A stretch of DNA of 64,000 bases from Callorhinchus milii (Eukaryota): NCBI RefSeq assembly GCF_018977255.1, contig NW_024704757.1, forward strand, positions 6,448,001-6,512,000, in the 5' to 3' direction. Numbering within the stretch: position 1 is the first letter of the stretch; each line of letters starts with the position of its first letter. The position numbers were made by a program, and so were the translations under genes. The notes under the pieces were generated by a model, which was not told the DNA's origin, searched no databases, and was given only the letters and a program-made list of their open reading frames with translations. Positions 24,801-45,500 of this stretch are shown here, piece after piece.

Positions 24801-27800
24801 AATTTTGCACACTTGAAGAATGGCCAAAACGGCCAAATGCCAGTGGGCTGCTGGCCTCCTTGACCTAACCCAGTAAGTCACAGATTTCAGGCGCAATGAG
24901 ACGAAAAGTGGCAAAAATAATATCCTCTGAACAATCCAAAGCACCCAGATATAGGTTTGTTGTCTGCAATTCCTGACCTCAGCTCTACTACTATGCAGAG
25001 TCAAGAGGAACAATCCATGTATTTCCCCCTCCCCAGGTAAATTGGAATACTAAAGCGATCTCTCAAACTCCCAACAGTCACAGAACAGCTGGAGTAAATG
25101 ACATAAAACTAAAAATCTCAAAATGGAGATGACGCTTAGCAATTAGTTTTCTAAAGTTTGAAATACAAGCGAGACTTGTTGCAGAAAGTTCCTCATTGCT
25201 CATTACCTGATTGGATTCAGCAAGTTTCTCTTCAGTCTCTTGAAGTTTCTTGTTCTGAAGCTCCATGTTCTTCTTCAATGTTTTATTCATCTCAACCTGT
25301 TCCTTGAGTTTTTCCTGAGTCTCTGCCTCCTTTTCCTGTATTTGCTTCACCTGAACCATTAATTCCTGGTTCCGATCTGCCTCCCGCTATTTTTAAAAAA
25401 GTGTCCAATCAGTACTTAAATGAAAGACTGTAAAACATTGATAAAAAGACGTTCAAGGCTACAATATAAAAATTCTCCTGTAAAATAACCTTGGTGATCA
25501 TTTGCTGACCATGAAAGAAAATTCCATATTTTTGTTGCAAGGCAGAAGAATGAAAAAAGTTCAACTAAGTATTAAAATAATTTAAAGAAAAGATTTCACA
25601 TCGAACTCCGGATTAATGTTTCATAAGTAACTTTAAGACAGCAGCATTGAATATTAATTGTTTCACCTCAGGCAGATCATTAAAAAAAGAGAACTCATAG
25701 AAATTCTAATCTGCTTTAATTTGACAGCAACAGTGAGGGAATCTGAAGTCTTTTACATCTTCTAAAAACACGAATAGTTCTGACACAAGGGCACATTCCT
25801 GACAGCTTCCACCAACTGTGCATTTGCATCTCCATTTATTTTCTCTGCCTAGCTGATGCACGGAGCTAAGAAGCCAAGCATATACACTGTTCCTAAGCTA
25901 CTGCCAATTTCCCCCGTAACAACCTCCGCTCATAATGAAATAAAGTTAAAAAGTTAAACCAGTGGCTTTGCGGCTCAAATTGTTGGGACGAGAAATGATA
26001 GTTCACACCCACTCATAACCACCACTACATACATGAAATAACAGTACAGCATTTCTCCAGCAGCAGAGAGTGGAATAGTTGATAGTGGTAAGTCATACAT
26101 ACATACATTTACAGCAATCAATCAAGAATAAACACCATTCGTAAGAGGCATGTGGTGTACACTCTTGCTTCATACCTCGTAGTTCCAGGAACTGGTCTGT
26201 GCTGCCTTCTCCAACTCAATCCTGGCACGTTTATGACTGAGCTCTATCTTCTGCTTCTCCCGTTCAACCTCTAGGACACGGGTTTTGGAGCGAACATCCT
26301 CTGCCTGCTCTTCTGCCTGAGAAATACACAAAATTGATTTTTTCTTTAGACAATTTAAAAGAGGCCTACTTTTCTTTTAGACAAGAGAAAAGGAAAAATT
26401 AAATAAAAAGCACGATAATAACGACTGTTAGTCCACCAAACCAAAGCACATCTAATGGCATAACACTTTCAAAGACATACTTGTATCCAAGAAAGTTTTC
26501 TGTAGGTGGATTGTAGCAACTTTATCTTATCCTAGATAATATTGTTTATATTTAGAGATTATTAGGCAACTATCTGAAATGACAATAATAATAAATAATA
26601 ATAAATGGTTTACTTGACATGTGTTCTAAACGCGTGCAGCTCATTAAAGGTAGGTAAAACCAGCACAAAATGCAATGTTTTATACTTTATTTTAAAAATA
26701 AAAATCTTTTGAAGTTGCAACTTTTACAAAAAAAGCAAAATTCAGCCAGTGAGATGAAAACCACTGGCAAAAGGAATGCATCATTGAGTTTGCAATAAAA
26801 AGGAAGAGACAGCTATTGTATTCAAATACTATTTATGTGCTACTGCCTTGTATATTTGTAGTTTCTGGAGATCATCATTAGTCATGAGGCCCTCAGGTGA
26901 TACATCAATGCACAAGAGGGCTAAGGCTTGTCCCAATAAAATCTGCAAGTCTTTGTCACTTGCCGCATGGATCTGCCAAACGTCCTCAGTTCTAGGCTGA
27001 AGTTCAGCCAGAGGCCGGGAAACGGCAACTGGAGTATGCATACAGACGCCATATTATATTTGTGCTGCACAGACAGAAGGTTGTTTTCAATCAGTGCCGC
27101 GCTCGGCAGAGGTTGGGCGTACATGCTTGGATGAACTGCAGCGGCCTCTGGTCTATTGGAGGGCCACACTTGTGACAGGATACAGCAGGAGGCCATGATA
27201 CAGCCCTCCAATAAACCAGAAAGCTCTGCAATGCTTCTGAGCATGTACACCCAACCTCTGCCGAGCGCCTATAGCAGTCATAGAATAGGCGGGAGGCCTC
27301 CGCGATGCAAGCCCCCATCTGATAGGACAAGTTATCTGATCAATTTTACTTTGTAAGCACTTACAAGAATTTTTAGAATGTGACTAGTTACGTAATAAGC
27401 AGAGTGACGAGTAAAGCGCTCCGGAACCCTACCCGGAGCGTGAAAGAGTCCTTTATTAACATTCTGTAATGGAAGGAGCCGGGATACTGACAGGATGGCA
27501 ACTTAAGTGTTAGTGACAAGTTAAGCCAGGGTCAAGTTATCAGAGTTTGCTGTATAGCGGGGTCCTATTATAGCTCTATACTAAATTCCATAAAATCCTA
27601 ACCAGAGTCTATAATGGGGCAAAAATGTGGCTTCTCCGACAATGCAACACTTCACCAGTTACTCCAATGTAATGTCAATTTAGAGAAGCAACAAGAGTGA
27701 TTTCTTCCCCAGCGGTCGAGCCTTCAGCTTCTCTGTCCCTCAGCTTTTGGAACTCCATCCCAGTCACTTGCTGTCCTTGCTGCCTCCCTTGCCTCCTTCA

Positions 27801-28221
27801 AGGTACATCTCAAGAACCCTCCTCTTCAACCACACCTTCAGCCACCCGCTTACCCCTACCCTCCCGCCCTCCTGATCTAAACTCCCTGCTCGGGTCCAAA
27901 TCCCTGACGCCCTCTCGATGTGAAAGGAGCTATACAAATGTAATTTATTATTGTTGTTCTTCCCCAGAAAAAAAAGTTTAAACCATTAGGAGGTGGGAAG
28001 GCACATACATTCCCTCTCTCTCCAGTAATATTCTTTTTTCAGGCACTAATAAGGACCACATTCTGACTGACCTGCATTTTCTGCTGGTACTGTAACTGCC
28101 ACATATTTGGGATGGAGCTGGGCTCAGTCACGTTTGACGTAGATGTTGACGCCTGCGACAAAAAGTTGTTGAATGAACGTAAAGTTGAGAAGACAGTGGT
28201 GTTATCGTCCAGGTCATCCAT
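18879..28221 (-). CDS. MAD1L1: Mitotic arrest deficient 1-like 1 (MAD1), 5' part. Coding exons: 28072-28221, 26176-26316, 25207-25386, 23673-23797, 22819-22900, 20027-20157, 19552-19666, 18879-18940. The gene continues beyond the left edge after a long intron.
   Basis: Spliced translation [23 protein letters not shown]...[15 protein letters not shown]...[21 protein letters not shown] matches vertebrate MAD1 (human MEDLGENTMVLSTLRSLNNFISQ). All junctions are GT-AG. Exon lengths 150/141/180/125/82/131/115/62 keep frame. The next expected exon (TPEDLSR...) was not found in 1-18878. Confidence 0.96.
20570..21557 (+). mobile_element. L2-clade LINE 3' fragment containing the RT YADD motif (frameshifted)
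   Basis: atgtatgccgatgacacccaactttac = MYADDTQLY near 20600; LHWLPIPQR; (TTG)n tail. Confidence 0.92.
27099..27268 (-). repeat. Long imperfect inverted repeat (66-bp arms, 38-nt loop) in a MAD1L1 intron
   Basis: Arms 27099-27164 and 27203-27268 align without gaps, 55/66 identical. Confidence 0.95.
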
Positions 28222-29126
28222 TCTTCCGTCTTCGACCCTGAAACAGTCAAAGAGGGAAAACATTTTTTAATAAGGAAATGTCACAGCTACGTGCAAAATG
28301 GTGGGTGGCCCAGTGACAATCGAAATAGGTCATTCCATGGAATGGCAGGACACAGGATTCATGCAAAACCCGTGCAACACTTTTTGACAACAAAAATCTG
28401 TCTCAAGTGTAAGACTACAGACAATTTATGTATCCTTCGCCCATAGATTATACAGTCAATTCACATATACTGTATATTATATACTGTATAATGTTTCCAT
28501 ATTACTGCACATCCGTGAAGCGCTTTGAGACGTCTCAAAGAGTGGCATGAATTCTCTTTTTGGGAACTTGCTGTACAACTCAGTGGGTTAAATGCATCCT
28601 GTGAGAGGTGTGTCTGGATCTCTCTAATAACAATCCTTGCATTCAGTACAAGTGTCCTACTATCATCCCATCATCTAAGTGTCTCAGAGCACGTCACGGG
28701 ATCCGAATGTGAAGCGTAGCGACTGTATTTTGTAGGCAAACTCGGCAGCTCACTCGCACAAAGCAATATCCCACAGACAGCCGCAAAGAGAATTACCGAT
28801 TTTGTTTCGTGGGGGGTGGGGGGGGGGGGGTGGACGGAGGCGATTATCGACCGGCACACGGGGGGAGAAACTCCCTTCTCGTTGCCAACGGCACCGCTGG
28901 ATTTTTTTTTAGGTAAACATCCACCTGAACACCACCGTACTTCGACGTCTCATCTGAAGGACGGCACCTCCAACAATGCAGCGGAGGCTCTCCCCCCCCC
29001 CCAGCACAGCATTGGTGCAAATTACAAAGCCCTGATTTTGGGGGGGGCTTGACACCCCCCACCCACCCACAGGGAGAGGGGGGCGAAGGGGGAGGAGTCC
29101 CATACCCTGTCCCTAGAGGTCCCTGC

Positions 29127-31171: not shown

Positions 31172-32590
<1,419 letters not shown>

Positions 32591-33149
32591 TTAAAGAAAG
32601 ATTTATTTTAAATAAAGGTGTTTAATATATAAATACAAATTATATAAAATATAAATAAAAGATATATGGAAATATAAATAAAAAATAAATTAAAAAATAA
32701 TAATATGGTCACTGAATCCACGACTATTTGTGGGACACTGCTGCGCGCAATTGTCTACCGCGTTTCGTCCACAAAATATACTTTACAGTATATTCTGTGA
32801 AGGGCTTTGATACGTCTTGAAGTGCAAGGATCAAATATCAAATGCGAGGATCATTACTATTAGAGAATTGACTGCAGGAGGTGCTCAACAGCGACTCTCC
32901 ATGGGTGTAAGTTCTTAACATTTCTTGGTACCACAGCATTGGCAAGGCAAAGAAAGGTTAACAGTAACTAACGTCTTATATATATATATACACACAGTTT
33001 CAATCTCTAATTAAGAGTGATCTTTGCAACCTCAGCAATCAAGCGGTGGCGGAGACACGCGGAATGAGTCGTCTCAAAAGTATCTGCCTCATAATCCACT
33101 CTTTTAAACAAAAAGATGATATGAAAGAAAAAGATTCTGGGTTTCACCC

Positions 33150-34130
33150 GCTCACCCCGAACTCTCTCCAAACGTCAACGATCACAGTTACCGGCAGCCC
33201 CGCAGCGTCAACCGGATCACAACCATCGATCCGATTAACCCGTCAATGAATCAAATGATGAATGAATGAATTCATCCATTCATCACTTGATTCATTTGAG
33301 TCCATTTCAGCCAAAGTGGGGTGTGTATGTGTGTGTGTGTGTGTATGTGTATGTGTGTTGGGGGGGGGGGGGGGGTTGTAATATCTACTGATTACAATGT
33401 CACCTCCTCAAACCTCCTGAATCATTTTCGGGGGGAAAGGATGAAGTTGAAATCCAATCTCTTCGCAAACAACAACTCCTACAACTTACAACGACACCTG
33501 TGGCTGAACTACAAATGGGATTTTCTATCCATTAAACATTATCCGACTGTTGTCTCCCCACCACCCTCCTCTCCCCCCACCCCCCCACCCTCCTCTCCCC
33601 CCCTCTCCCCCCCCTCCTCTCCCCCCCCCCCACCACCCTCCTCTCCCCCCCCCCCCACCACCCTCCTCTCCCCCCCCACCCCACCACCCTCCTCTCCCCC
33701 CCCCCCCACCCTCCTCTCCCCCCCCCCCCCCACCCCTCCTCTCCCCCCCTCCCCCCCCACCCTCCTCTCCCCCCCCCCCACCACCCTCCTCTCCCCCCCC
33801 CTCTCTCCCCCCCCCCACCCTCCTCTCCCCCCCCCCCCACCACCCTCCTCTCTCCCCCCCCACCCTGCTCTCCCCCCCCCCCCACCCTGCTCTCCCCCAC
33901 CCTCCTCTCCCCCCTTTACCCTGCGTTTTCTTCCGGGTGATGTGGGGTTGAGTGCGACTCCCCTCTTCCTGATTCGATCCGCGAGTTGGTTCGCTGATCT
34001 CCGGCGCAAAATCGGGCCCCGGGTTCGCAGTGCGGAGGAGCGAGTCTTTTGTGAATGGGAAAAGGATTTGTAGCCGAAACCCGCGGAGAGGGGTCGCGCA
34101 GCTTTCATTCACAAACCACCGCAGAGGGGA
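33150..34130. promoter_or_regulatory. Divergent MRM2/NUDT1 promoter region; candidate MRM2 non-coding exon 1 ends at 33156 (GG|GTGAGC on minus)
   Basis: CpG-rich patches at 33150-33250 and 33920-34110 between two head-to-head genes, the same arrangement as in human. Confidence 0.55.
33553..33915. repeat. Polypyrimidine minisatellite, unit about CCCTCCTCT(C)n(ACC)A
   Basis: Directly visible array between MRM2 and NUDT1. Confidence 0.95.
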
Positions 34131-34846
34131 TACACTTCTGATACAACTGATTCTGGTTTCACCATCGATTCATTGGGAGAAATAATAACCTTTCCCCCCC
34201 CCCCCCACCTCCACCCCACCCCACCCCCACCCCATCGCCATCATTTTTTCCTCTTTTACTTATAATAACAATAATAATTATTATTAATAATAATAATAGC
34301 GGGGTGGGGGGGTGCGGAGGCGACCGAAAGCACCGTCAAAAAAAGAAGGGGTTTGAGAGGGGGGGTAGGGGTGGGGGTGCGAGACGGAGGGATCGAGGGA
34401 GAGAGCTCCAACGTTTCGGGGCGCGTCAGTCCGCGAGGGTTTGCGGGACACTGCCGAGCGCAATTGGCTGCCGCTTAAGGCACTATATCAAACGCAAGGA
34501 TTATTATTATTATTATTGTTATAAGGCACCTTATCGTGTTGTTGAGACGCTTCGCAGGTTATACTTTAAAGTGAGTTTGCCTGCGTGTGTTGTGGGGGAT
34601 CCCGCCGCTCAGACTCGTTGTGGAGTAACTTCTTAAGAGAGAAAACCCTAAACGCTCCCCCCCCCCCCCCCCCCCAACCCCGAAGAGTCAAGTCAAATAC
34701 ATCGCCTTACGTCAAAACATCTCAAAAGAGCTTCAGGGGCTTCTATTGTAAAGTGTGGTGACTGTGCTTCACTACTGCAGTAGTGTGTGACCTCCCTTGT
34801 TTGGGTAGGAGTCTGGGTAAAGGGGTAAACACTGATGCCGACAGAG

Positions 34847-35897
34847 ATGTTCACCTCCAAGCTGCTGACTCTGGTGATAGTGGTTAAACCGCAGCAGGTT
34901 CTCCTGGGCTTGAAGAAACGTGGCTTTGGGGTCGGACGGTGGAACGGGTTCGGAGGCAAATTGCAGCCTGGAGAGAGCATCGAGCAAGCCGCCAAGAGGT
35001 GACCATCTGTACTCCCCACTCTTTCCCCATAGCCTTGTGACTTGTTTTATTTTCAAGCATCCATCTAATTCCCTTTTGAAAGTTATTATGGAATCTGCTT
35101 CCACCACCATTTTAGGAGGTGCATTCCAGATCGTTAACAACTCGCTGCGTAAAAAAAATCTTCTCATCTCCCCTATGGATCTTTTGCCAATCATCTCAAA
35201 TCTGTGTGCTCGCTCTATGATCTTGACTGTCTATGAACCTATGAAAACCATCTCCTTCCTTAGGGAATTATGGGAGGAGAGCAGCCTGACCGTGGACAGC
35301 CTGGAAAAAATCGGAAACATCCGGTTCGAGTTTGTCGGGGAGACCGAGATCCTGGACGTTCACATATTCCGCACGGACCATTACCACGGAGAACCGTCCG
35401 AATCCGAGGGTAAGTAACGGACACAGCCTACATTCACACATTGCAACCATAGACATTTACAGCACAGGAGGAAAAGAGCCATTCGACTTGTCGTGCCTGT
35501 GTTGGCAATCCTTTCAGTCACATTTGCTCTTCTCGTTGTCTCAGTTTCACACCAAGCCAAGGCTTTCCCAACTCAGGTCAGGGGGGGTGTGGGAAGAGGG
35601 GAGAAGAGTAAAAAACTCATTACCTTTCACCACATCATGTGTCATTTGCTCCGGTTTGCTGTGTCAAATGGGAATCGTTCATCCCTGCTCTCTCTCTCTC
35701 TCTCTCCCTCAGAGATGCGGCCACAGTGGTTTGACCTGGATGCCATCCCATTTGACCGGATGTGGCCGGACGATATCTACTGGTTCCCGCTGTTGCTCCA
35801 GAAGAAGAAATTCCAAGGTTACTTCAAATTCCAGGGACATGATACTATCCTGGACTATACACTGCAGGAGGTGGAGGAGTTACCGGTTGACAAATAA
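34847..35897 (+). CDS. NUDT1: Oxidized purine nucleoside triphosphate hydrolase (MTH1), about 160 aa; exons 34847-34998, 35264-35409, 35713-35897
   Basis: [62 protein letters not shown]...EMRPQWF...[13 protein letters not shown]. Nudix box, WNG and WPDD present. Exon sizes 152/146/185, GT-AG. An in-frame upstream ATG at 34835 is also possible. Confidence 0.97.
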
Positions 35898-37094
35898 TCA
35901 GGGACAGAGATCGGGGTGGGGGGGAAAGAGAGGTGCACTGACCCTAGAGGGTGGGAGTGAGGAGGGAGACAGTGTTACATTCGGTACCAGCCTCCTGCAA
36001 TGAAATGTAACCAAAACTACCCCCCGTACCCTCCCAAATTCAAGTAAGGTTACCAATCCTTGCATTTGATATCGCGCCTTATCACGTTTTCGGGACTTCT
36101 CAAAGAACCTCACAGGTTATACTGTGAAATGAACTGACTATATATTTTGTGGGCAAAACCCGGCAGCCAATTGCACACAAGCAGTCTCCCACAAACAGTT
36201 GTGGATTGAGTGACCAAATTATTGGGTTTTTTTTGGAAGTGATTATTACGCCTGAAAAAGCAATCCGCCATCGACTTAACACATCTTTAAAATACTAAAA
36301 TTTACTTCTTCTTCCCCCACCCCCACACCCCAAACTCATTATTTTATTATTATATAAAAAAACGAGTTAGACATGAAACTTCGCTCACAAATATACGGTC
36401 AATTCACTTTACAGCATATTCTGTGAAGCACTTTGAAACGTCTAAAAGATGTGAAAAGCGCTATATCAAATGCAAGGGTTATTATTATTATTAACTTGGA
36501 CACACCGTCCAGAGTATTGGGATATATAGTGCAGAGTCTCGGGTTGCACACAGTCTTACATTCCCAGCGTTGTCCTAAAGTGATGCAAGTTAAAGGCCAA
36601 TACTGTTCACACAGTCACTACATTTGACAGTAGTTGTCAGCCAAGTACTCCCAGACCTTCCACTGTTACAGGTCGTGTATTAAATGCAAACGTTATTCAT
36701 ACTGTTAACTTGGTCCAGTCAAGTTGAGGAGGTGTTTACTGTGGCGTGAAATATTTTTGATTAAAAAAGCATGATTTTAACTTGCGGTCAGTCAAATCCA
36801 TTGCTCCATCCAATCACATTAAAGGTATTTTAAAGGAAATGGAAGCTTTAGAGGTAAATATTTTCCTTTCAAAAAATGAGCCAATTCCTCATGTCATCTT
36901 TCCGCTTACTCCCTTGTGAAGGATGAATGCTATTCCACATCCAGCCACGAGGTGACCTGTGAGAGCAGCTCAGGATCATTCTCCATCTCAGGGTCAGTAC
37001 CTACTCTCACTGATACAGTAAAACTCACCTAAGTCTGCTCTGTATAAATCGTTTAATGTCCTGCCGTTCAAGAGATTATTATTATACATTGTAT

Positions 37095-37535
37095 AATAAT
37101 CCTCGCATTTGATATAATCCCTTATCATTTGATATAGCGCTTTTCACATCATTTGAGACGTCTCAAAAGCACGTCACAGAATAATAATACTTGCATTTGA
37201 TACAGCGCTTTCCACGTCTTCTAGACGTCTCAAAACGCTTCACAGAATATACTGTAAAGTGAATTGACTGTATATTTTGAGGGCAAAACTCAGCAGCCAA
37301 TTGAACATGGCAGTTTTCCATAAACAGTCATCGACTGAGTGGCCAAATTACTATTTTTGTTAAATTATTACCCCCGGAAAAGCGATCCGCAAATCGTCTG
37401 ACAACCAGGTTCTTACTTACTGCTACATAAGTGTGCAGAATAAGGAACTTGCCCATCGTTTCACCCTGCCAGGAACTGAACCCAGGACTTCTCGCTTGCA
37501 AGGCGAGTGCTCTAACCACTAAACTACAGGATTCC
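37095..37535 (-). mobile_element. Full-length tRNA-SINE with a duplicated tail
   Basis: Head at 37470-37535; tail repeated at 37095-37185. Confidence 0.85.
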
Positions 37536-38690
37536 TACAGTATATTTTGTGATGGTCTTTACAGCATATTTTATGAAGCACTTTGAGACGTCTCGAAGAC
37601 ATGATAAGAGTTCATATTCTCTGCACATTTGATATAACTCGTACTTTGCACAAGTCACATAAGTTGTGACTTATGTGAGGTTTACTGTGATGTAACGTAT
37701 CCACTCTCTCCCTCCAGCTTGCTGGCTGTATCACAGGCAAAATAGCAGCGATTGGTTTATGGGTTTTAAAAAGTCCGGTTAGAGAACAGAACCTGATCTT
37801 AACCAGGAAAAATGGAACAAACCAGCTTCGACAGAGCAAAAGGCAAACGCTGCCCCTTTTTTGCTTTGCTTTGGGACGCGGCCATGAAATGGACACTGCG
37901 ATCACTCTCGAGTAAGTAAATGATTTCAGGGATTTAAAGGTTTAAATGTCCCGGAGTTAGCACATCCTGACACTGACCAGCGGCTCCGCTCTGAGCATTG
38001 TGAGCTGATCACGTTTCCTCACCAAATCCTTTTCCTCTCTCCCCTTCCTTGGTGTCCCATCCCAGCCTACCGCCATACAGCAAAGCACTCCGAGACGCTA
38101 ACCTGCATGAAAGGCGCTGTGTAAATGCAAGTCATTTTACAGTATGGCTCTGGAGGTCACCAGTGTTCTTGTGCTAGGAGGAAAGCAATGGAGAACATTA
38201 CGTGGACAGAAGAACTCAAGGTGGCAGAGGGCAGCTGGTAGTTACCTACAGACCTTTACCCCACCCAGAGAAGAAAAGGGGAGAGGGGATATGCGGGAGG
38301 GGTGTGACAAGAGGAGGCGGAGTTACAAACACACAGAAGATGTAACTTTGGAATAGTTGGGAGTTGTCGTAAAGTGTCAGCGCATTTCCCAGTGTGAATT
38401 GATATCGATTTTGCTGTATCTATGGTCTCAGTTTTAAGAATAAGTCTGGCTATTTGTATTACATAATAAACTTTGGATTATTACACCACCGTATTGGTCT
38501 TCTCCATTGGAATCTCTTACCGGGGGTATAGAGAGAAAGGATAGAGGGTGAGAGAGAAACCGAGGGGAGAAAACAACGACGACATCAAATTATATTTGTA
38601 TAGGGCCTTTTATGGGAGGAAGCATGTCCCAAAGTGCTGAAAAAAAATACAGAGAGAAAAAAAGTCAACTGGTTAATTATATAGTATAAA

Positions 38691-41600
38691 TTTATTGTAG
38701 GTATTAATTCATATAAACAGTAGATATATTTTGTAATTGTAAACCAATGCATTTGCTGACTATTTCTGTATGCTATCTCGATAACGTTCCAATTATTCAG
38801 TAAAGTGCTTCAAAAACAAAAAAACCTTCGCTGCGGAACAGAGGGGAAAATGGACCCTAACTTGAGATCACTCGCCAGGCAGCAACTCCGGTTACAATTA
38901 GCTTACTGTTGGCACCCGATAATGCAAGGCAAGGTTTTATATAAGGCAGGTAAATACAGTGCTACTTTGCTGTTGGTAAGAATCACTCATAGTCTAAACA
39001 TTCTCACTGTAAACATCTTCCACACAGACAGACAGACACACATAGACGAGACAAAGAGCTACTTAGAACCAGGGCTTAAACAGCTTCTTGCATTTTCCAA
39101 CGCTGGGTAAAATGAGGAGAGCAAACATACAAGCTACATTGGCATCCAGTTATAAGGTTTCAGAGTTGAAATGAGGTGAGGAGAGAGAAGTGGGGGTAGG
39201 ATGGGGTAATGAGGAGGAACACAAAGAACAGCAAATGCTAGATTATTAATAATAATCCTTGCATAGCACCTTATCTCGTCGTTGAGACATCTCAAAGTGC
39301 TTCACAGATAATATTGTAAAGTGTGCATTTTGCGGGCAAAATGGTTCGGGATACGAAGGAAAAGCTTCACTGCAGCACCATGGATTCGGTTGCCACACTG
39401 GCAGCCACGAGGGAGCTGGTATCTTACATTCAAAGTCACCTTTTTCTAACCGTTCCTTACCCCTGGCTGCACAGTGTCAAGGGCAGGAAGTGTTGAAGGC
39501 TGTAGTGTGGCTACTTGTCGTAATCAGACAGTTTGAAGTGTATGTTCATTCTCAGAGGGAGGTATAGTGGGAGGTGAGGGAAATATATCACTATAAACAC
39601 ATCGTTCATATATAGAATGTGAACTGCAGGCTTCAGTGGCTGCCTGCGAGTGAGATTGGCAATTTAGTGCGTCCACATCCAGTGCGTGCGTGAGTGTGGG
39701 TGGGGGAAAACCAAATCAGTGTTTCTGAGACCATTGAATTCGGGAAAGAAACCTTTACAGGAAAAAAACAGAACTTCGCCCCACAAAGTGTCACTGCTGG
39801 ATCTGAACTCAGTTCCTTGAACTGAGAAAGTGTGGAAACCCTAAGCACTCTGCACAGTCCCAGGGAAGTTTGGAAACTGTGGTGCTTTTGCTGCCCTTGT
39901 TTTTGAGGAAGGAGGGAATAATAATAATTATAATAATCCTTGCATTTGGTATAGCACATTATCACGTCATTGAGACGTCTCAAAGCGCTTCACAGAACAT
40001 ACTGTAAGGGAAGTGGGGGAGGGAGGGAAAGAAAGGACAGGAAACGTAAAGGCTCCAGCCTCCATACGCAGTTATTTAACACACTGGTCTTGTCACTGAA
40101 AACCCATTCCAGGCCCCGTCTCATTTCATCCTGTCACAGGAAAAAACAAGTTTGGGGAGTTGATGTCTCTGGGAGCAGCCTGCGGACAGATCCTTCCATC
40201 TCCAGTCCACCAAGTCCTCATCTTAACACAGAGCGAGTGACATACACACACACACAAGGTCAGAACTGGAGGTCGTCACCCTCTCTCCCCACACTTGCCC
40301 ACACACACACACATACAGATTTCATAGTTTGACTTAACAAATCTTTCCTCCTCTCCTAGAGAGAGAGAGAGAGGTGGGGGGGGTTTGGTTACTTAACAAC
40401 ACAACTCCAAGCACATCAGCCAACAAGAAGTAGCCTGACGTCAGGCACCTGGCAAAGTACAAAAGGCAGTGAAAGCTTCTTCTCTCATCAGTTCCTCCCT
40501 TTAACTGGAAAACATCTCCTTTGAAGCCAGCCTTCCTGTTTAGACACAAAGTGGCTCGGGGGGGGCTGACTCCAGGACGGAAACTGCAAGAACACGGTTT
40601 GCAATGGGAACATTTTTTTGAAACCTCCTGCGTTTTATAACTGAGTCAGCATCTCAGGTCCTCAAATGGTATCAGGCTTCAAGGTTAATGTAATGGGGGA
40701 AAGGGAAGGGGGGGAGGACATTGAAGCACACAACATGAACAAACGGTACAGAGGGTGTGCTTAAGGCTATGCTATACCTTGGCTGACAAATTAATAGCTT
40801 AATGCTGGTGGTTAATGGTTAATTGCAAGTAATCGTTTAACTGTAACCAGATATCCCATCATTCGGGAGGCAAATAAACAAACCAACTCTGTTGTTCTGA
40901 GTGTGTTTCCAGCTCAGGCTCAAGTTCCTCAACTGGCGTCAATACAAGATTGGGCTCACAGAGCAACTCCCACCTCTTATTTATTGGCGTCCTCTGGCAG
41001 AACGTGTGAAAAAGCAGCTCGCTCCTGACTGCCTCCTCACCGTACATAGAGAGAGAGAACCTTACACACAGTAACACAGCAGAAATAAAGGACCCAGCTT
41101 TGGGAGGTTGGTGGGGTGGGGTGAGGGAGGGCGTAATGGAAAAACTGGGGAACCGAACCCTAAACTATCACTCTGGGGACTCTGCGGAACCATGACATCA
41201 AATGGATCAATTTAAATCGTCGGAGCCCAGCACTGCGTGGGTTAACAAGCGAATCAAACCACTCTCAAAACCGTTGCTGTTCGCGTATGATTACAACGCA
41301 ACCCACACCCCCGCCCACCCCCATCCCAAAGTGCCAACGCTCCACTTCCCGTAGGAGATGTGGAGAAACAAGGTACCTCTCACTACCCACTCAGAGGGCT
41401 CCACAGAAACCCACCCCCCACCCCTCCGTCACGCTCCCCCCAGATCCCTCACGTCCTTTAAACTATTGGACACGAAAAACAAACAACTTAACTGCAAATC
41501 TGCGAGCAAGGCCAATTCCTGATGGAGAGTTGCTGAAGCGCGCTGGAGGAAAGGCCTCAGTGCTGTGATAGGAATCCAGAGAGCTGTGGAATTTCCTGTG

Positions 41601-41712
41601 GTGCTCGCTGGGCACAGTACAACCTCTTCTGTCCAACAGACTTGGGGCCCAAAATATTCCAGTTATTCAGTGACTGGGAACTGTTAATCCTAGGGCTGAG
41701 ATTGAAGCCTCT

Positions 41713-41750
<38 letters not shown>

Positions 41751-42560
41751 TCAACTAAGCACCTACAGCACCCAACCTTTAATCCTTTCTTACCCCATCC
41801 CACCACCCACCAATCCACCCCACCAGGACCCCATGTTATTAACCCTTGCCTCCCCAACATTGGATGATATAAAACTACGGCTGGAGTGATGTGAACTGCG
41901 TGTGGTTAACACAGCAAGTGTTCGCGACCAGCACGACAGAGCTGGACACAGTTGCACACATGGGAACTGATTAGATTGTAACGCGCTTTGGCTGAGATCA
42001 TACACCCCTCTACCCTGTGGGGGGGGGGGGGGGGGGGGAGGGGGAGAAAGAGGGGAGATGAAATGTCCTGCGGCAACTAGGAAGGCTGCTGAGTGACAAC
42101 TAGCAGCAGGAAGCAGCAGTCAGCACAACAGTGTAGAAATGGGTTTTACACTGATGTGACTGTTCCTTTTTTCCTGGAGTGTCTAGTTCCCCTCCCACAC
42201 ACACGAGGCTTATATTTCAGCTCAGTTCAAGAGTTTCAAAGATTTCCTGACAGAGCACTAGCCTCACTGTGAGCTGGTCTCTAATCACAGTAACACAGGG
42301 AAAACCACACAACAGCCAGAGAAATAGCCCAACGGTCTCCCAGCCAAGGTCACAGCAGGCCGGAGAAGAGGAAACTTACTCACTACTGAGAAGCCTGAGT
42401 CTCGGGAAAACTTTCAAACCAAAGTCAGGAGAAGTAGGAATAACAACCAGAATGTTGTACAGATGAAGCGAAAGGAAAAATTAAGTCCACTCTTCGCACA
42501 ACCTCTTCTCTCCCGCCTTTGAAAATTGCCCCCCCAACAGCGCAAGAATGCTGTGGAATG
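38691..42560 (-). other. Probable long 3' UTR of SNX8, ending near AATAAA (minus) at 38691-38696
   Basis: No exons between the SNX8 stop and this point; AATAAA in an AU-rich context. A more proximal AATAAA lies near 40980. Confidence 0.45.
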
Positions 42561-45500
42561 TCACTGGGGGAAGAAGGTGCTGGGGTTGTGCCAGGCTCCA
42601 GGCCTTGGGGACACAGGGGGTGACGGGGTCCCGTTGGGCAGGAGGCAGCCCAGCTTCGGCTTCAAGTCGTTCCACACCTCGCACATCTGGAGAGAAGAAA
42701 CACATGTTACACTTATACACAAAACATCAGCCACATTAGTGCGGTTACTGAGCCAGGCGGGTTCACAGGATTCCAGGGCACTGTAGAAGGACAGCCCAGT
42801 CACTGTAGCAGGGAATCCTCCCACTCAGGTCCCGTTATGCCCGCAAGCCAAAGCCCTAATGGATAGGGTGGTCCTAGCTGGACAAGCAGCAAGAAGGCTT
42901 GCCAGACAGCACTCTCAATGGCAAGCTATACAGTTTTAACTGGTTCCAGCAGTTACTCCAATGCACAATCTGGGGTACCCAAGCCTTGGTTCTTTCCAAC
43001 ACGCACCTAATACTCTCCAAATTAGTTAAGCGGCATGGAGAGAGGGCCTGTAATCTGTTCCATATCTAGGTGGTGTACATACATGCATATCTGTCTGGTT
43101 TGGAGAATAGTGTTGGTTTCCGCACGTGTCAGACACATGCCTGACCAAAGGTGTAAAGCAATTCGTAGAACAGTGTGAGGACCTTGAAGTCAATCCATTC
43201 TGTGATGGGGAGCCAGTGGAGCCTGGTGACTTGTGCAATGTGGGTACTTATTAATTATTGCTTATAAAGAGCAGAGTTCCTGGGGGTTTAAGAGTTGAAG
43301 AGTTACCAGGACAACCCATGCCCACAGGTTGGTGGGTCCGTACCTCTCTGTGGCCTTGGATCTGGGAGTCGATGAAGGCGGTCAGCACGTGAGACGTGAT
43401 GTGCAGGTAGATGTGGATGAGCTGGGTTTCCTGGTGAAGGCAGTACATGGAGAAGTAATTGCGCAGCTCCATGTTCAGGATGGCGTTCTCTTGCTGAAAC
43501 ACGAGAGCACGGATTTAACACAAAACACTTTCCATCTTCAACACCATTTCACATTAGGTCCTGACTCCCAACCCTGGATATCTCTTTTTCACGTCCGTTC
43601 ATCCCCCTCCTTCTCCCCTCTCTCTCCCTCTGATACAGCAATTTTCACTTCGGAGGGCATCCCAAAGAGCTTCACATGATTTACTGTGAAGTGTAGTGAC
43701 TGTGTGCATTGTCGGTGAACCCGGCAGCCAGTTTGAGCACAGCAAAACATCCCACAAACAGCCATGAAGTGAGTGACCAATTTTATCTGGGGGATTGTCG
43801 GCCGGGGCATCAGAGAGAGAAATTCTCTTCTCAAGTCGTGCTGAGGGAGACCTTTAACATCCACCTGATGAGGCGCAGATGAGACCTCGGTTTATGGTCT
43901 CACTGGAAGGGACGACACCTCCAACACTGTACGATATAGTCCCCGACGTGGGGGCTTGAACCCACAACCTCTGACACAGAGGCAACAATGCTACCAAATG
44001 AGTGTATCCCATCCATCTGACTCTGTGTCTCCTGCTTTTTGACAGTATGTATCAGGGCCACCCCTCTCCCTCCCACTCGCCACCCGGTCACACCTGCACA
44101 ATGCGAGACTCCAGTTGCTCCACAGACAGCGGCTCCTTGCTCTGCACCGTCACACTCATCATCTGCCGCTTCATAGACGTGTATTTCTGTAGCGCTCGCT
44201 GGTGCTCGTGCAACACCCCCTTCTCGTGCCGCTCGCACAAATCCTGAACCGGGAAAGGAGGAGAGACGCACATACACATCACATACGCGCACAGGCACGC
44301 AAACACGCACGCACAACCCACACCACACCCACAATACATGCCCACACACCAACCATACACACACACCACGCCCACACACACAAGGAATAACTGGGGTAGA
44401 AAGGGGTGAGGGAGCAAAGTACGTTCAGTCAATTCCCTGCCCCCCAACCCCAGCGACACCTTCCCCCTCACCGCAGGTGTGGCTCTCCCTACAGCCGTGC
44501 TGTAAAACTCACTCACTTTGTAAGACTGCAGCAAATCGAGGAAGATGCTGAGTTTTTCCACCACCTCCTCTTCCTCTCGCTTTCCCTGCCACAAACAGAG
44601 ATAGACACGGATACAGTAAACAATACCACATTGCGATCAGACTGTCCATCGTCACTCTCTCCCCACACCACCGACTCCCACTCAGGAACAACTCCAGCCA
44701 CAGGCTGTGACACCTTGTCCAGCTAGAACCACCCTCCGGTCGCTCAGGGCAGGGATTCTTGCCACTTGGCGCCTGAACTAAAGCCCTAACGGATCGGGTG
44801 GTCCTAGCTGGACAAGCAGCTGGAAGCCTGGCAGGCAGTGGTCTGAACAATAATAATCCTTGCATTTGATACAGCGCCTTATCACATCTCATCATCCTCG
44901 AGACATTTCAAAGCGCTTCACAGGATACTCTGTAAAGTGTAGCGACTGTGTATTTTGTGGAGCGAAATGCAGTAGCCAGTTTGCGCACAACCGTGTCCCG
45001 CAAACAGCTGTGGAGGGAACGACATACACAGTATACAAAACAAACAAAAAGAAAAAATTGTGCTCCAATTTGGACAGAATTTTGAAAAATTTACCAATTT
45101 GGTCAAAGCATTATTTTCCAATTTGGAATGAAACTGAGGATGTATGAATATTATTCAGTTTGAGTTTGCAAGTTCCAGATAGCACTGGCTTTCTGGCAAG
45201 CTATGTGGGATCAGCTGGTTAAACTCTAGCAGTTATCTCCATTGCACACTCTAGGCTCCCACCCCCCAGAGCCTCGTCTCTCGCCAGCCTGTGCCTTAAG
45301 CACTACAGGACGCTGTCCTGAGTGAAGGAAGCAATATAAGTGCAAGTTGTTGTTATACTCACTGGAGTTGGCTAGGCAGGGAGTGCACATTCCATTCCAG
45401 ACAGAAGGAAATATCCATGTGCACAGAGGTGGACTGTCAGTCTGGTTTGGAGACAGTTTGGGGTGTGGTTGTGTATGTGTGTCTGTGTGCGTGTGTGTGC

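What the first reader, a model, noticed from the sequence alone, without database searches (positions are those of the whole stretch)
27099..27268. Unique long hairpin in a MAD1L1 intron, with wobble bias toward the pre-mRNA strand
Seen: gcgctcggcagaggttggg...tattggagggc (27099-27164) is the reverse complement of 27203-27268, ungapped, with 11 differences in 66. On the minus (MAD1L1 sense) strand 5 of the 11 become U-G wobbles and the stem extends 5 more pairs into the loop (4 of them wobbles). On the plus strand only 2 become G-U. The minus-strand fold also has two A-C mismatches, a context ADAR prefers. It matches no other repeat in the window. Inference: a selected RNA structure (intronic miRNA/endo-siRNA precursor, editing substrate or splicing regulator), or a remnant of an old palindromic non-autonomous DNA transposon (MITE or Crypton-derived Eulor-type) that may have been exapted. 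Ordinary transition decay can also create wobbles, so the strand bias is suggestive only.
Basis: partly seen in the sequence, partly recalled or inferred. Interest (0 to 1): 0.72.

Follow-up and report, generated by a model that had tools for sequence, protein, structure and literature searches.

The report
Edited pogo MITE hairpin in MAD1L1
The hairpin is real but not unique: it is the built-in palindrome of an old, truncated miniature DNA transposon with many dispersed copies in this genome, and its folded intron RNA is likely edited by ADAR as a by-product, with no good sign that selection has kept it.

Summary
The hairpin is real: 66-bp arms with 11 differences, z -12.2 on the MAD1L1 sense strand. 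It lies in the 1,755-nt intron after the first coding exon. It is not unique. The same sequence occurs at 39 other scored places, and probably in several hundred copies. It is the internal ~100-bp palindrome of a ~578-bp non-autonomous pogo-superfamily (pogoR-like) element with 18-bp TIRs starting CAGTA and TA target duplications. Two longer elements carrying pogo transposase sequence share its ends. The window copy (27099-27554) keeps one TIR plus TA and has lost the other end. The wobble bias is not significant (5:2, p 0.45; 9:2, p 0.065). This copy has no compensatory change outside CpG sites, and its arms have diverged as much as its unpaired tail. One low-depth contig from a probable RNA run shows four differences, all A-to-G on the sense strand and all in the stem. 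This hints at ADAR editing, without a DNA control. Verdict: a probably neutral MITE relic, of the kind known from Xenopus Harbinger and zebrafish ANGEL repeats.

The parts
27099..27554 (.). Truncated copy of a ~578-bp pogo-type MITE (family positions ~119-578). A weak alignment continues to 27059. The other terminal ~100 bp with its TIR is missing.
   Evidence: nhmmer 376.5 bits, model 77-577; no second TIR in the window; 26840-27100 is single-copy in the genome
27099..27164 (-). Hairpin arm, 3' arm in the pre-mRNA; remnant of the ancestral palindrome arm (family positions 104-203)
27203..27268 (-). Hairpin arm, 5' arm in the pre-mRNA; remnant of the ancestral palindrome arm (family positions 235-334)
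27165..27202 (-). Loop with 5 extra pairs (27165-27169 with 27198-27202). These are decayed ancestral CpG-rich pairs. Two deletions (19 and 12 nt against the model) removed the rest of the inner stem; 13 of 38 aligned bases differ from consensus.
27419..27445 (.). 27-bp insertion, against the family model, forming a small hairpin with 8-bp arms
27536..27552 (-). Surviving terminal inverted repeat, with one deletion and one substitution against the 18-bp family TIR
27553..27554 (.). TA next to the TIR: one half of the target-site duplication
   Evidence: family TA tally
27127..27137 (-). Candidate A-to-I sites at 27127, 27128 (A opposite C at 27239) and 27137
   Evidence: T>C in one 294-nt contig of run X6, depth 2.6; structural context
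27235..27235 (-). Candidate A-to-I site in an internal loop; the reference base is seen in a contig of run X5
28071..28240 (-). MAD1L1 first coding exon (ends uncertain by 1-4 nt)
   Evidence: spliced contigs in 4 of 4 runs; ORF
26176..26315 (-). MAD1L1 next coding exon
   Evidence: spliced contigs; Pfam MAD E 1e-07

Best explanation
The hairpin is the inherited internal palindrome of a dead, truncated pogo-type MITE in a MAD1L1 intron; it is predicted to fold in the pre-mRNA and is likely edited by ADAR as a probably neutral by-product. Shown: family, ends, TA duplication, dispersed copies, a near-perfect ~100-bp stem in the family consensus, shared ends with pogo-transposase elements, and decay no slower than the unpaired tail. 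Inferred: a pogo transposase acting in trans inserted the element at a TA. The palindrome probably arose once, by inverted duplication in the founder, since the longer relative holds only part of one arm. This copy then lost one end and part of the inner stem and decayed by CpG and other transitions. Every transition in a palindrome gives G-U on one strand and A-C on the other, so some strand skew is expected by chance. The intron RNA would fold on itself without needing a second repeat, be deaminated at some adenosines, and be degraded with the spliced intron. My odds for the MITE origin alone are about 0.97.
For: Copies: 39 other places among 40 scored; 475 first-look candidates for a full-length copy, 40 scored; 37 exact hits of a 20-nt arm motif, control 0. 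Only 1 of 30 to 5 of 67 arms match that motif exactly, so I estimate about 250-550 copies. Ends: perfect 18-bp TIRs in the consensus. TA lies at 11 of 21 left and 15 of 21 right ends of copies not chosen by their TIR. There are 325 exact TA+TIR sites, control 0. Parents: L143 (3.6 kb, broken DDE_1 relic) and L142 (4.1 kb, 528-aa CENP-B_N/HTH_Tnp_Tc5/DDE_1 ORF) carry both family ends. Neutral decay: arms 10/108 versus tail 28/236 non-CpG changes, p 0.58. No non-CpG compensatory change; the 4 two-sided changes are at CpG positions. Pairing over the full stem is 59/86, with 13 of 23 other copies as high. Energy per base ranks 10 of 24, and 13 of 23 other copies have as large a strand difference. 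A wobble share at least as skewed occurs in 4 of 26 other copies. CpG C-to-T is skewed to the sense strand in MAD1L1 intronic repeats (odds ratio 1.76, p 0.002). Editing hint: 4 of 4 differences are sense A-to-G (rough chance as SNPs 0.0004-0.0007; any single transition type 0.002-0.004), all 4 in the arms (p 0.024). Precedent: PMC5625713 and PMC8096273 passages.
Against: Counting wobbles on the better strand, none of 26 (66 bp) or 25 (72 bp) other copies reaches it; that stretch was chosen after the fact on this copy. Only 4 of the 9 sense wobbles lie at flagged CpG sites. The non-CpG strand bias in the gene is nil (p 0.59 and 0.77), and the copy's own tail shows no skew (9 against 10), so mutation bias explains little. 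The editing rests on one contig of depth 2.6 from a run whose RNA status is a guess, with no matched DNA. Two of the four changes (27128, 27137) restore the family consensus base and could be old alleles. The ADAR neighbour pattern is compatible but not significant (p 0.29, 0.24). No orthologue could be examined.
Confidence: 0.62

Rival explanations
1. Same MITE relic, but inert: the four T>C differences are alleles of another individual or assembly errors, and the hairpin is not appreciably edited.
For: One contig, depth 2.6, and the tool warns that such differences may be errors or alleles. Two of the four restore the consensus base, one at a CpG. A contig of X5 has the reference base at 27235.
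Against: All four are the same change, in the sense A-to-G direction, and all lie in the arms. The other two changes are seen in no other copy: 27127 is T in 26 of 26, and 27235 is never C in 36. The other listed contigs from this locus show 0/237, 1/174, 0/176 and 1/146 differences (only the longest pieces are listed).
Confidence: 0.25
2. Exapted structure: selection has kept this copy paired on the sense strand as an editing-dependent or splicing-modulating element of the first coding intron of MAD1L1.
For: Top-ranked pairing over 66-72 bp; wobble skew leans to the sense strand (9:2, one-sided p 0.033; 0.084 allowing for the CpG bias); editing hint; position about 800 nt from both splice sites.
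Against: No non-CpG compensatory change. Arms decay like the tail. The outer and inner parts of the ancestral stem are lost or heavily decayed, and pairing is average over the full stem. Contigs of 4 of 4 runs show plain splicing across the intron, and no alternative splice joint near the hairpin was among the joints shown (22 joints not shown).
Confidence: 0.09
3. Source of a small RNA (MITE-derived miRNA like mir-548 from Made1, or intronic siRNA/siteRNA) cut from the hairpin by Drosha or Dicer.
For: Long stable stem; precedents in the PMC1784062 and PMC3875865 abstracts; many family copies occur in probable RNA runs and could be targets.
Against: No Rfam match over the hairpin at E up to 5, and only tRNA hits in six loci holding sibling copies. 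The ~71-bp stem with a 28-nt loop is about twice a canonical pri-miRNA stem (recalled, ~35 bp).
Confidence: 0.04

Closest known systems
pogoR family of the pogo superfamily (Gao et al. 2020, PMC7386202; passages and some Table S1 rows read) and pogo-derived MITEs
   Same: TA duplication; TIR under 40 bp starting CAGTA; relatives with CENP-B_N, HTH_Tnp_Tc5 and DDE_1 domains. I counted DD30D spacing in the coelacanth homologues; one pogoR row seen is CAGTA/CAGTA, TA/TA, DD30D.
   Different: Gao et al. list vertebrate pogoR transposons only from Latimeria, having excluded ancient truncated elements. This family is in a probable chimaera genome, is non-autonomous, and carries an internal ~100-bp palindrome separate from its TIRs. 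Placement in pogoR rather than Tigger was not tested by a tree.
Self-folding edited DNA-transposon repeats: Xenopus tropicalis Harbinger (PMC5625713) and zebrafish ANGEL, hAT (PMC8096273); passages read
   Same: A single palindromic repeat forms dsRNA without a neighbouring inverted copy and is an ADAR substrate. PMC5625713 also lists about 200,000 hyper-editing sites in elephant shark brain.
   Different: Different superfamily. Only the middle ~230 of 578 bp is palindromic. The copies are old (7-20% non-CpG divergence), and the hint here is 4 sites in one contig rather than near-complete editing.
Made1 MITE and hsa-mir-548 (PMC1784062; abstract read)
   Same: A MITE whose RNA forms a hairpin; the IS630-Tc1-mariner kinship of Made1 is recalled.
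   Different: Made1 is 80 bp and its hairpin is its TIRs. Here the stem is internal and longer, and no small RNA is shown.
Crypton-derived and Eulor ancient repeats
   Same: Old repeat with hairpin potential in a vertebrate intron.
   Different: This family has TIRs, TA duplications and DDE-transposase relatives. Cryptons use a tyrosine recombinase (listing) and lack TIRs (recalled).

Membership tests
pogo-superfamily MITE | TA target-site duplication | tested here: met
   TA at 26 of 42 ends (both ends in 8 of 21) of copies not selected by TIR; TA next to the window TIR
pogo-superfamily MITE | Short TIRs starting CAGT(A) | tested here: met
   18/18 TIR in the consensus; 325 exact TA+TIR sites, control 0
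pogo-superfamily MITE | Short, no transposase, many dispersed copies of similar length | tested here: met
   578-position model, 72 distinct copies or fragments aligned; TIR-to-TIR spans 354-736 in 21 copies, most 460-630; no transposase-like ORF in the window copy
pogo-superfamily MITE | Ends shared with an element encoding a pogo transposase | tested here: met
   2 of 50 DDE_1 loci examined carry family ends; both ends confirmed in L142 and L143; domains. The two transposases are only 31-37% alike over short stretches, so the direct parent is not settled.
pogo-superfamily MITE | This copy retains both TIRs | tested here: not met
   Only one TIR: the family meets the test, this copy is truncated
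pogoR family (versus Tigger) | Transposase clade in phylogeny | not tested
   No tree with reference transposases was built. The TIGD4-like label, CAGTA and DD30D point to pogoR, but Tigger spans DD29-36D.
Crypton/Eulor-type repeat | Tyrosine-recombinase parent, no TIR/TA ends (the latter recalled) | tested here: not met
   TIRs, TA and DDE relatives found
Crypton/Eulor-type repeat | Deep conservation at orthologous sites across vertebrates | not testable with these tools
   No related vertebrate genome is held
ADAR substrate | Long duplex on the transcribed strand | tested here: met
   Predicted fold; intron of a spliced minus-strand gene
ADAR substrate | Clustered A-to-G differences in RNA, in the duplex | tested here: inconclusive
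   4 of 4 in one contig of depth 2.6 in 1 of 4 runs
ADAR substrate | Differences absent from DNA of the same individual | not tested
   No DNA run was laid on the stretch
miRNA precursor | Match to a known family | tested here: not met
   Rfam 15: nothing over the hairpin; miRBase and MirGeneDB not available
miRNA precursor | Mature/star reads with precise ends | not testable with these tools
   Only contigs were available; no small-RNA run identified
Selected RNA structure | Compensatory substitutions and slower change in stems | tested here: not met
   Against the family consensus only: 0 non-CpG compensatory changes; arms versus tail p 0.58

The most novel reading that the evidence does not exclude
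This pogoR MITE family seeded hundreds of self-folding ADAR substrates through chimaera genes, and the MAD1L1 copy was kept paired on the sense strand to tune the first coding intron of a spindle-checkpoint gene. A catalytically dead, domesticated transposase of the same lineage, still lying between its own two ends (L142), binds the many surviving TIRs, including the one at 27536-27552, as a lineage-specific regulatory network.
Probability: 0.06. Interest if true: 0.62.

Novelty: new member of a known kind. Interest (0 to 1): 0.2.

Why it matters
As found, it matters little. It is one more palindromic DNA-transposon relic whose intron RNA is probably edited. Three small gains remain. It defines a pogoR-like MITE family in a probable chimaera genome, where the survey I read lists no pogoR transposon. 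It points to a self-folding repeat class that may account for part of the editing reported in this lineage. It gives a worked null: wobble skew and CpG 'covariation' in a palindrome arise without selection, and sibling copies measure how much. If orthologues showed selection on the stem, it would be a dated, testable case of a MITE becoming an editing-dependent regulator of a core mitotic gene.

Tried and rejected
Rfam: three weak hits near, but not on, the hairpin (E 0.65-1.8); only tRNA-like hits in six sibling loci. Sequencing runs: no RNA holder listed on record; four runs guessed to be RNA were laid as contigs. All 24 listed runs carry one species label, and the index finds only near-identical sequence, so this says nothing on conservation. 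Missing end of the element: not in the window, and the upstream 260 bp is single-copy. Transcription-associated mutation bias as the full cause of the wobble skew: rejected as sufficient, since only CpG sites show it and the tail of this copy does not. Family-wide maintenance of pairing: within-copy 70.4% against between-copy 70.05%, 569 of 2000 permutations as high. Compensatory transversions were in slight excess (7 against 2.7; 30 of 2000), none in this copy. Autonomous parent: 50 DDE_1 loci from the 59 matches were examined; L142 and L143 share no DNA similarity in their ORFs. The bacterial promoter scan is irrelevant to a vertebrate and was ignored. Literature: searches showed no description of this family in the listings; one search returned 0 papers. 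Repbase, Dfam, miRBase and MirGeneDB were not available, so the family may already have a library name. Supplements of PMC7386202 were seen only as the first two places per term; other supplements were not opened. Earlier scan notes: none by sequence or words; by place, only other elements (8 of 131 shown). Rows dropped before counts: duplicate loci, one of a near-identical pair (L012), and copies with under 75% of stem columns present.

Full report
Observation. The two arms are as described: 27099-27164 and 27203-27268, ungapped, 11 differences in 66. On the minus strand there are 5 wobbles and 2 A-C mismatches, plus five more pairs (4 wobbles) in the loop. Both strands fold far better than shuffles: minus -119.9 kcal/mol, z -12.2; plus -110.3, z -8.4. 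Pfam MAD matches minus-strand exons from this window down the contig. Contigs of four runs guessed to be RNA join 28071-28240 to 26176-26315 across a 1,755-nt GT-AG intron, so the minus strand is the pre-mRNA strand and the hairpin lies mid-intron after the first coding exon. The genome is probably the elephant shark. This is inferred from its 0.99-Gb size and from a RefSeq accession in the same series as a C. milii entry in PMC7386202.

It is a repeat. The 191-bp stretch matches 39 other places among the 40 of 123 candidates scored. Homology runs on to about 27556. Aligning the copies shows a ~578-bp element with perfect 18-bp TIRs starting CAGTA. TA flanks 11 of 21 left ends and 15 of 21 right ends in copies not chosen by their TIR. 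A full-length copy gives 475 first-look candidates. A 20-nt arm motif has 37 exact hits, control 0; since 1 of 30 to 5 of 67 arms match it exactly, I estimate 250-550 copies. TA plus TIR has 325 exact hits. Only 5 of the 30 such loci examined hold the long form; many of the rest are a shorter ~135-180-bp sister element with the same ends. Copies differ from consensus by 7-20% outside CpG, the window copy by 15.7%, and most CpGs are gone.

The hairpin is inherited. In the consensus, positions 104-203 pair almost perfectly with 235-334. The window copy holds positions ~119-578, one TIR (27536-27552) and its TA. It lacks the other end, has two deletions in the inner stem and a 27-bp insertion.

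Superfamily. Among 50 DDE_1 loci examined, two carry the family's ends. L143 is a 3.6-kb decayed element with model 280-577 at one end, 2-85 at the other, and a broken transposase between. L142 is 4.1 kb with model 383-577 and 1-81 around an intact 528-aa ORF with CENP-B_N, HTH_Tnp_Tc5 and DDE_1 domains. The short sister element breaks at the same place (13 of 24 hits end at position 81), which marks 1-81 as the natural terminal segment. TA, CAGTA and DD30D match pogoR rows in Gao et al. (PMC7386202; passages, supplement rows), but no tree was built. L143 has only part of one arm, so I infer that the palindrome arose in the MITE's founder by inverted duplication.

Is this copy selected? Sibling copies give the null. 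Against: that stretch was picked on this copy, and over the whole ancestral stem it pairs 59 of 86, with 13 of 23 siblings as high. Its energy per base ranks 10 of 24, and 13 of 23 siblings have as large a strand difference. Arms and unpaired tail have diverged alike (10/108 and 28/236, p 0.58). It has no compensatory change outside CpG; its four two-sided changes are at CpG positions, as in siblings. The wobble skew is 5:2 (p 0.45), 9:2 (p 0.065) or 14:6 (p 0.115). Four of 26 siblings are as skewed at 66 bp, 2 of 25 at 72 bp and 3 of 23 over the full stem, and the family total is balanced, 145 to 142. Repeats in 228 kb of MAD1L1 show more CpG C-to-T on the sense strand (odds ratio 1.76, p 0.002) but no bias at other sites. 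Strand-biased substitution in vertebrate introns is documented in PMC2927911 (passages; I did not see a CpG strand asymmetry there). This pushes in the observed direction, but only 4 of the 9 wobbles are at flagged CpG sites. The skew is best read as chance with a small mutational lean; weak selection is not excluded.

Editing. In run X6 one 294-nt contig (27079-27372, depth 2.6) differs at four places, all T>C on the plus strand, that is A-to-G in the pre-mRNA: 27127, 27128, 27137, 27235. All lie in the arms (p 0.024 given where the adenosines are), and one is an A opposite C. Four identical changes are unlikely as ordinary SNPs (about 0.0004-0.0007). None has a 5' G and three have a 3' G, which fits the ADAR preference described in PMC5625713 but is not significant. 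Against: one contig, low depth, RNA status guessed, no matched DNA, two of four changes restore the consensus base, and a contig of X5 that covers only 27235 has the reference base. The predicted energy barely moves (-143.1 to -144.8). I put editing at about 70%. Editing does not imply function: palindromic Harbinger repeats in Xenopus and ANGEL repeats in zebrafish fold on themselves and are heavily edited (PMC5625713, PMC8096273; passages).

Small RNA. Rfam has nothing on the hairpin or on sibling copies. No small-RNA data could be examined. Precedents exist (PMC1784062, PMC3875865; abstracts), so the odds are low but not zero.

Verdict. It works like a self-folding, probably edited DNA-transposon relic. 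It is a member of the pogo-superfamily MITEs, probably pogoR, and not a Crypton/Eulor repeat. I saw no description of the family in five literature searches, but repeat libraries were not available. New member of a known kind; interest 0.2. The side finding L142 deserves its own look: an intact transposase ORF with all three catalytic acidic residues replaced, still between its own ends, and 66-77% identical to its six closest coelacanth matches, which mostly keep the triad.

Noticed in passing
L142:2852-6983 (G000:C17:3824851-3828982); ORF L102:904-2487: Intact 528-aa pogo-type ORF (annotated TIGD4-like) whose catalytic D, D, D are replaced by G, N, E. It still lies between both ends of this MITE family, which are about 25% diverged. 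It looks single-copy (next best locus 39% identical) and is 66-77% identical to its six closest Latimeria matches, which mostly keep the triad. Likely a lineage-specific domestication that could still bind the family's TIRs (analogy to SETMAR is recalled).
   Followed up: partly
L143:2444-6024 (G000:C2:25215443-25219023): Decayed 3.6-kb element with both family ends and a broken pogo transposase only 31-37% identical to the L142 ORF over short stretches: two different transposases with shared ends.
   Followed up: partly
L033, L036-L039, L043, L050, L052, L055, L056 and others: A shorter ~135-180-bp sister MITE with the same TIRs and TA, without the internal palindrome; it seems to outnumber the long form among exact TIR hits.
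   Followed up: partly
window 27419-27445: 27-bp insertion in this copy with an 8-bp-arm hairpin that partly mirrors the flanking sequence, as a template-switch error would leave.
   Followed up: no
window 1-28000 and L144-L163: CpG C-to-T is about 1.3 times commoner on the sense strand in MAD1L1 intronic repeats, while A-to-G shows no strand bias, unlike the mammalian pattern described in PMC2927911.
   Followed up: partly
window 27413-27545: Many contigs of probable RNA runs come from other family copies and run out through the TIR; one 2,430-nt contig ends in it, so copies may lie at transcript ends.
   Followed up: no
L008 and L012 (G000:C1:65.487 Mb and 65.457 Mb): Two near-identical copies with shared flanks 30 kb apart: a local duplication or an assembly duplicate.
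   Followed up: no
window 31172-44636: ORF pieces that read like MRM2 (minus), NUDT1 (plus) and SNX8 (minus) follow MAD1L1, the order recalled for human 7p22.3; names recognised from translations, not tested.
   Followed up: no
family stem, 27 sibling copies: Slight excess of compensatory transversions within copies (7 against 2.7 expected; 30 of 2000 permutations), which may be rare arm-to-arm conversion at DNA level.
   Followed up: partly
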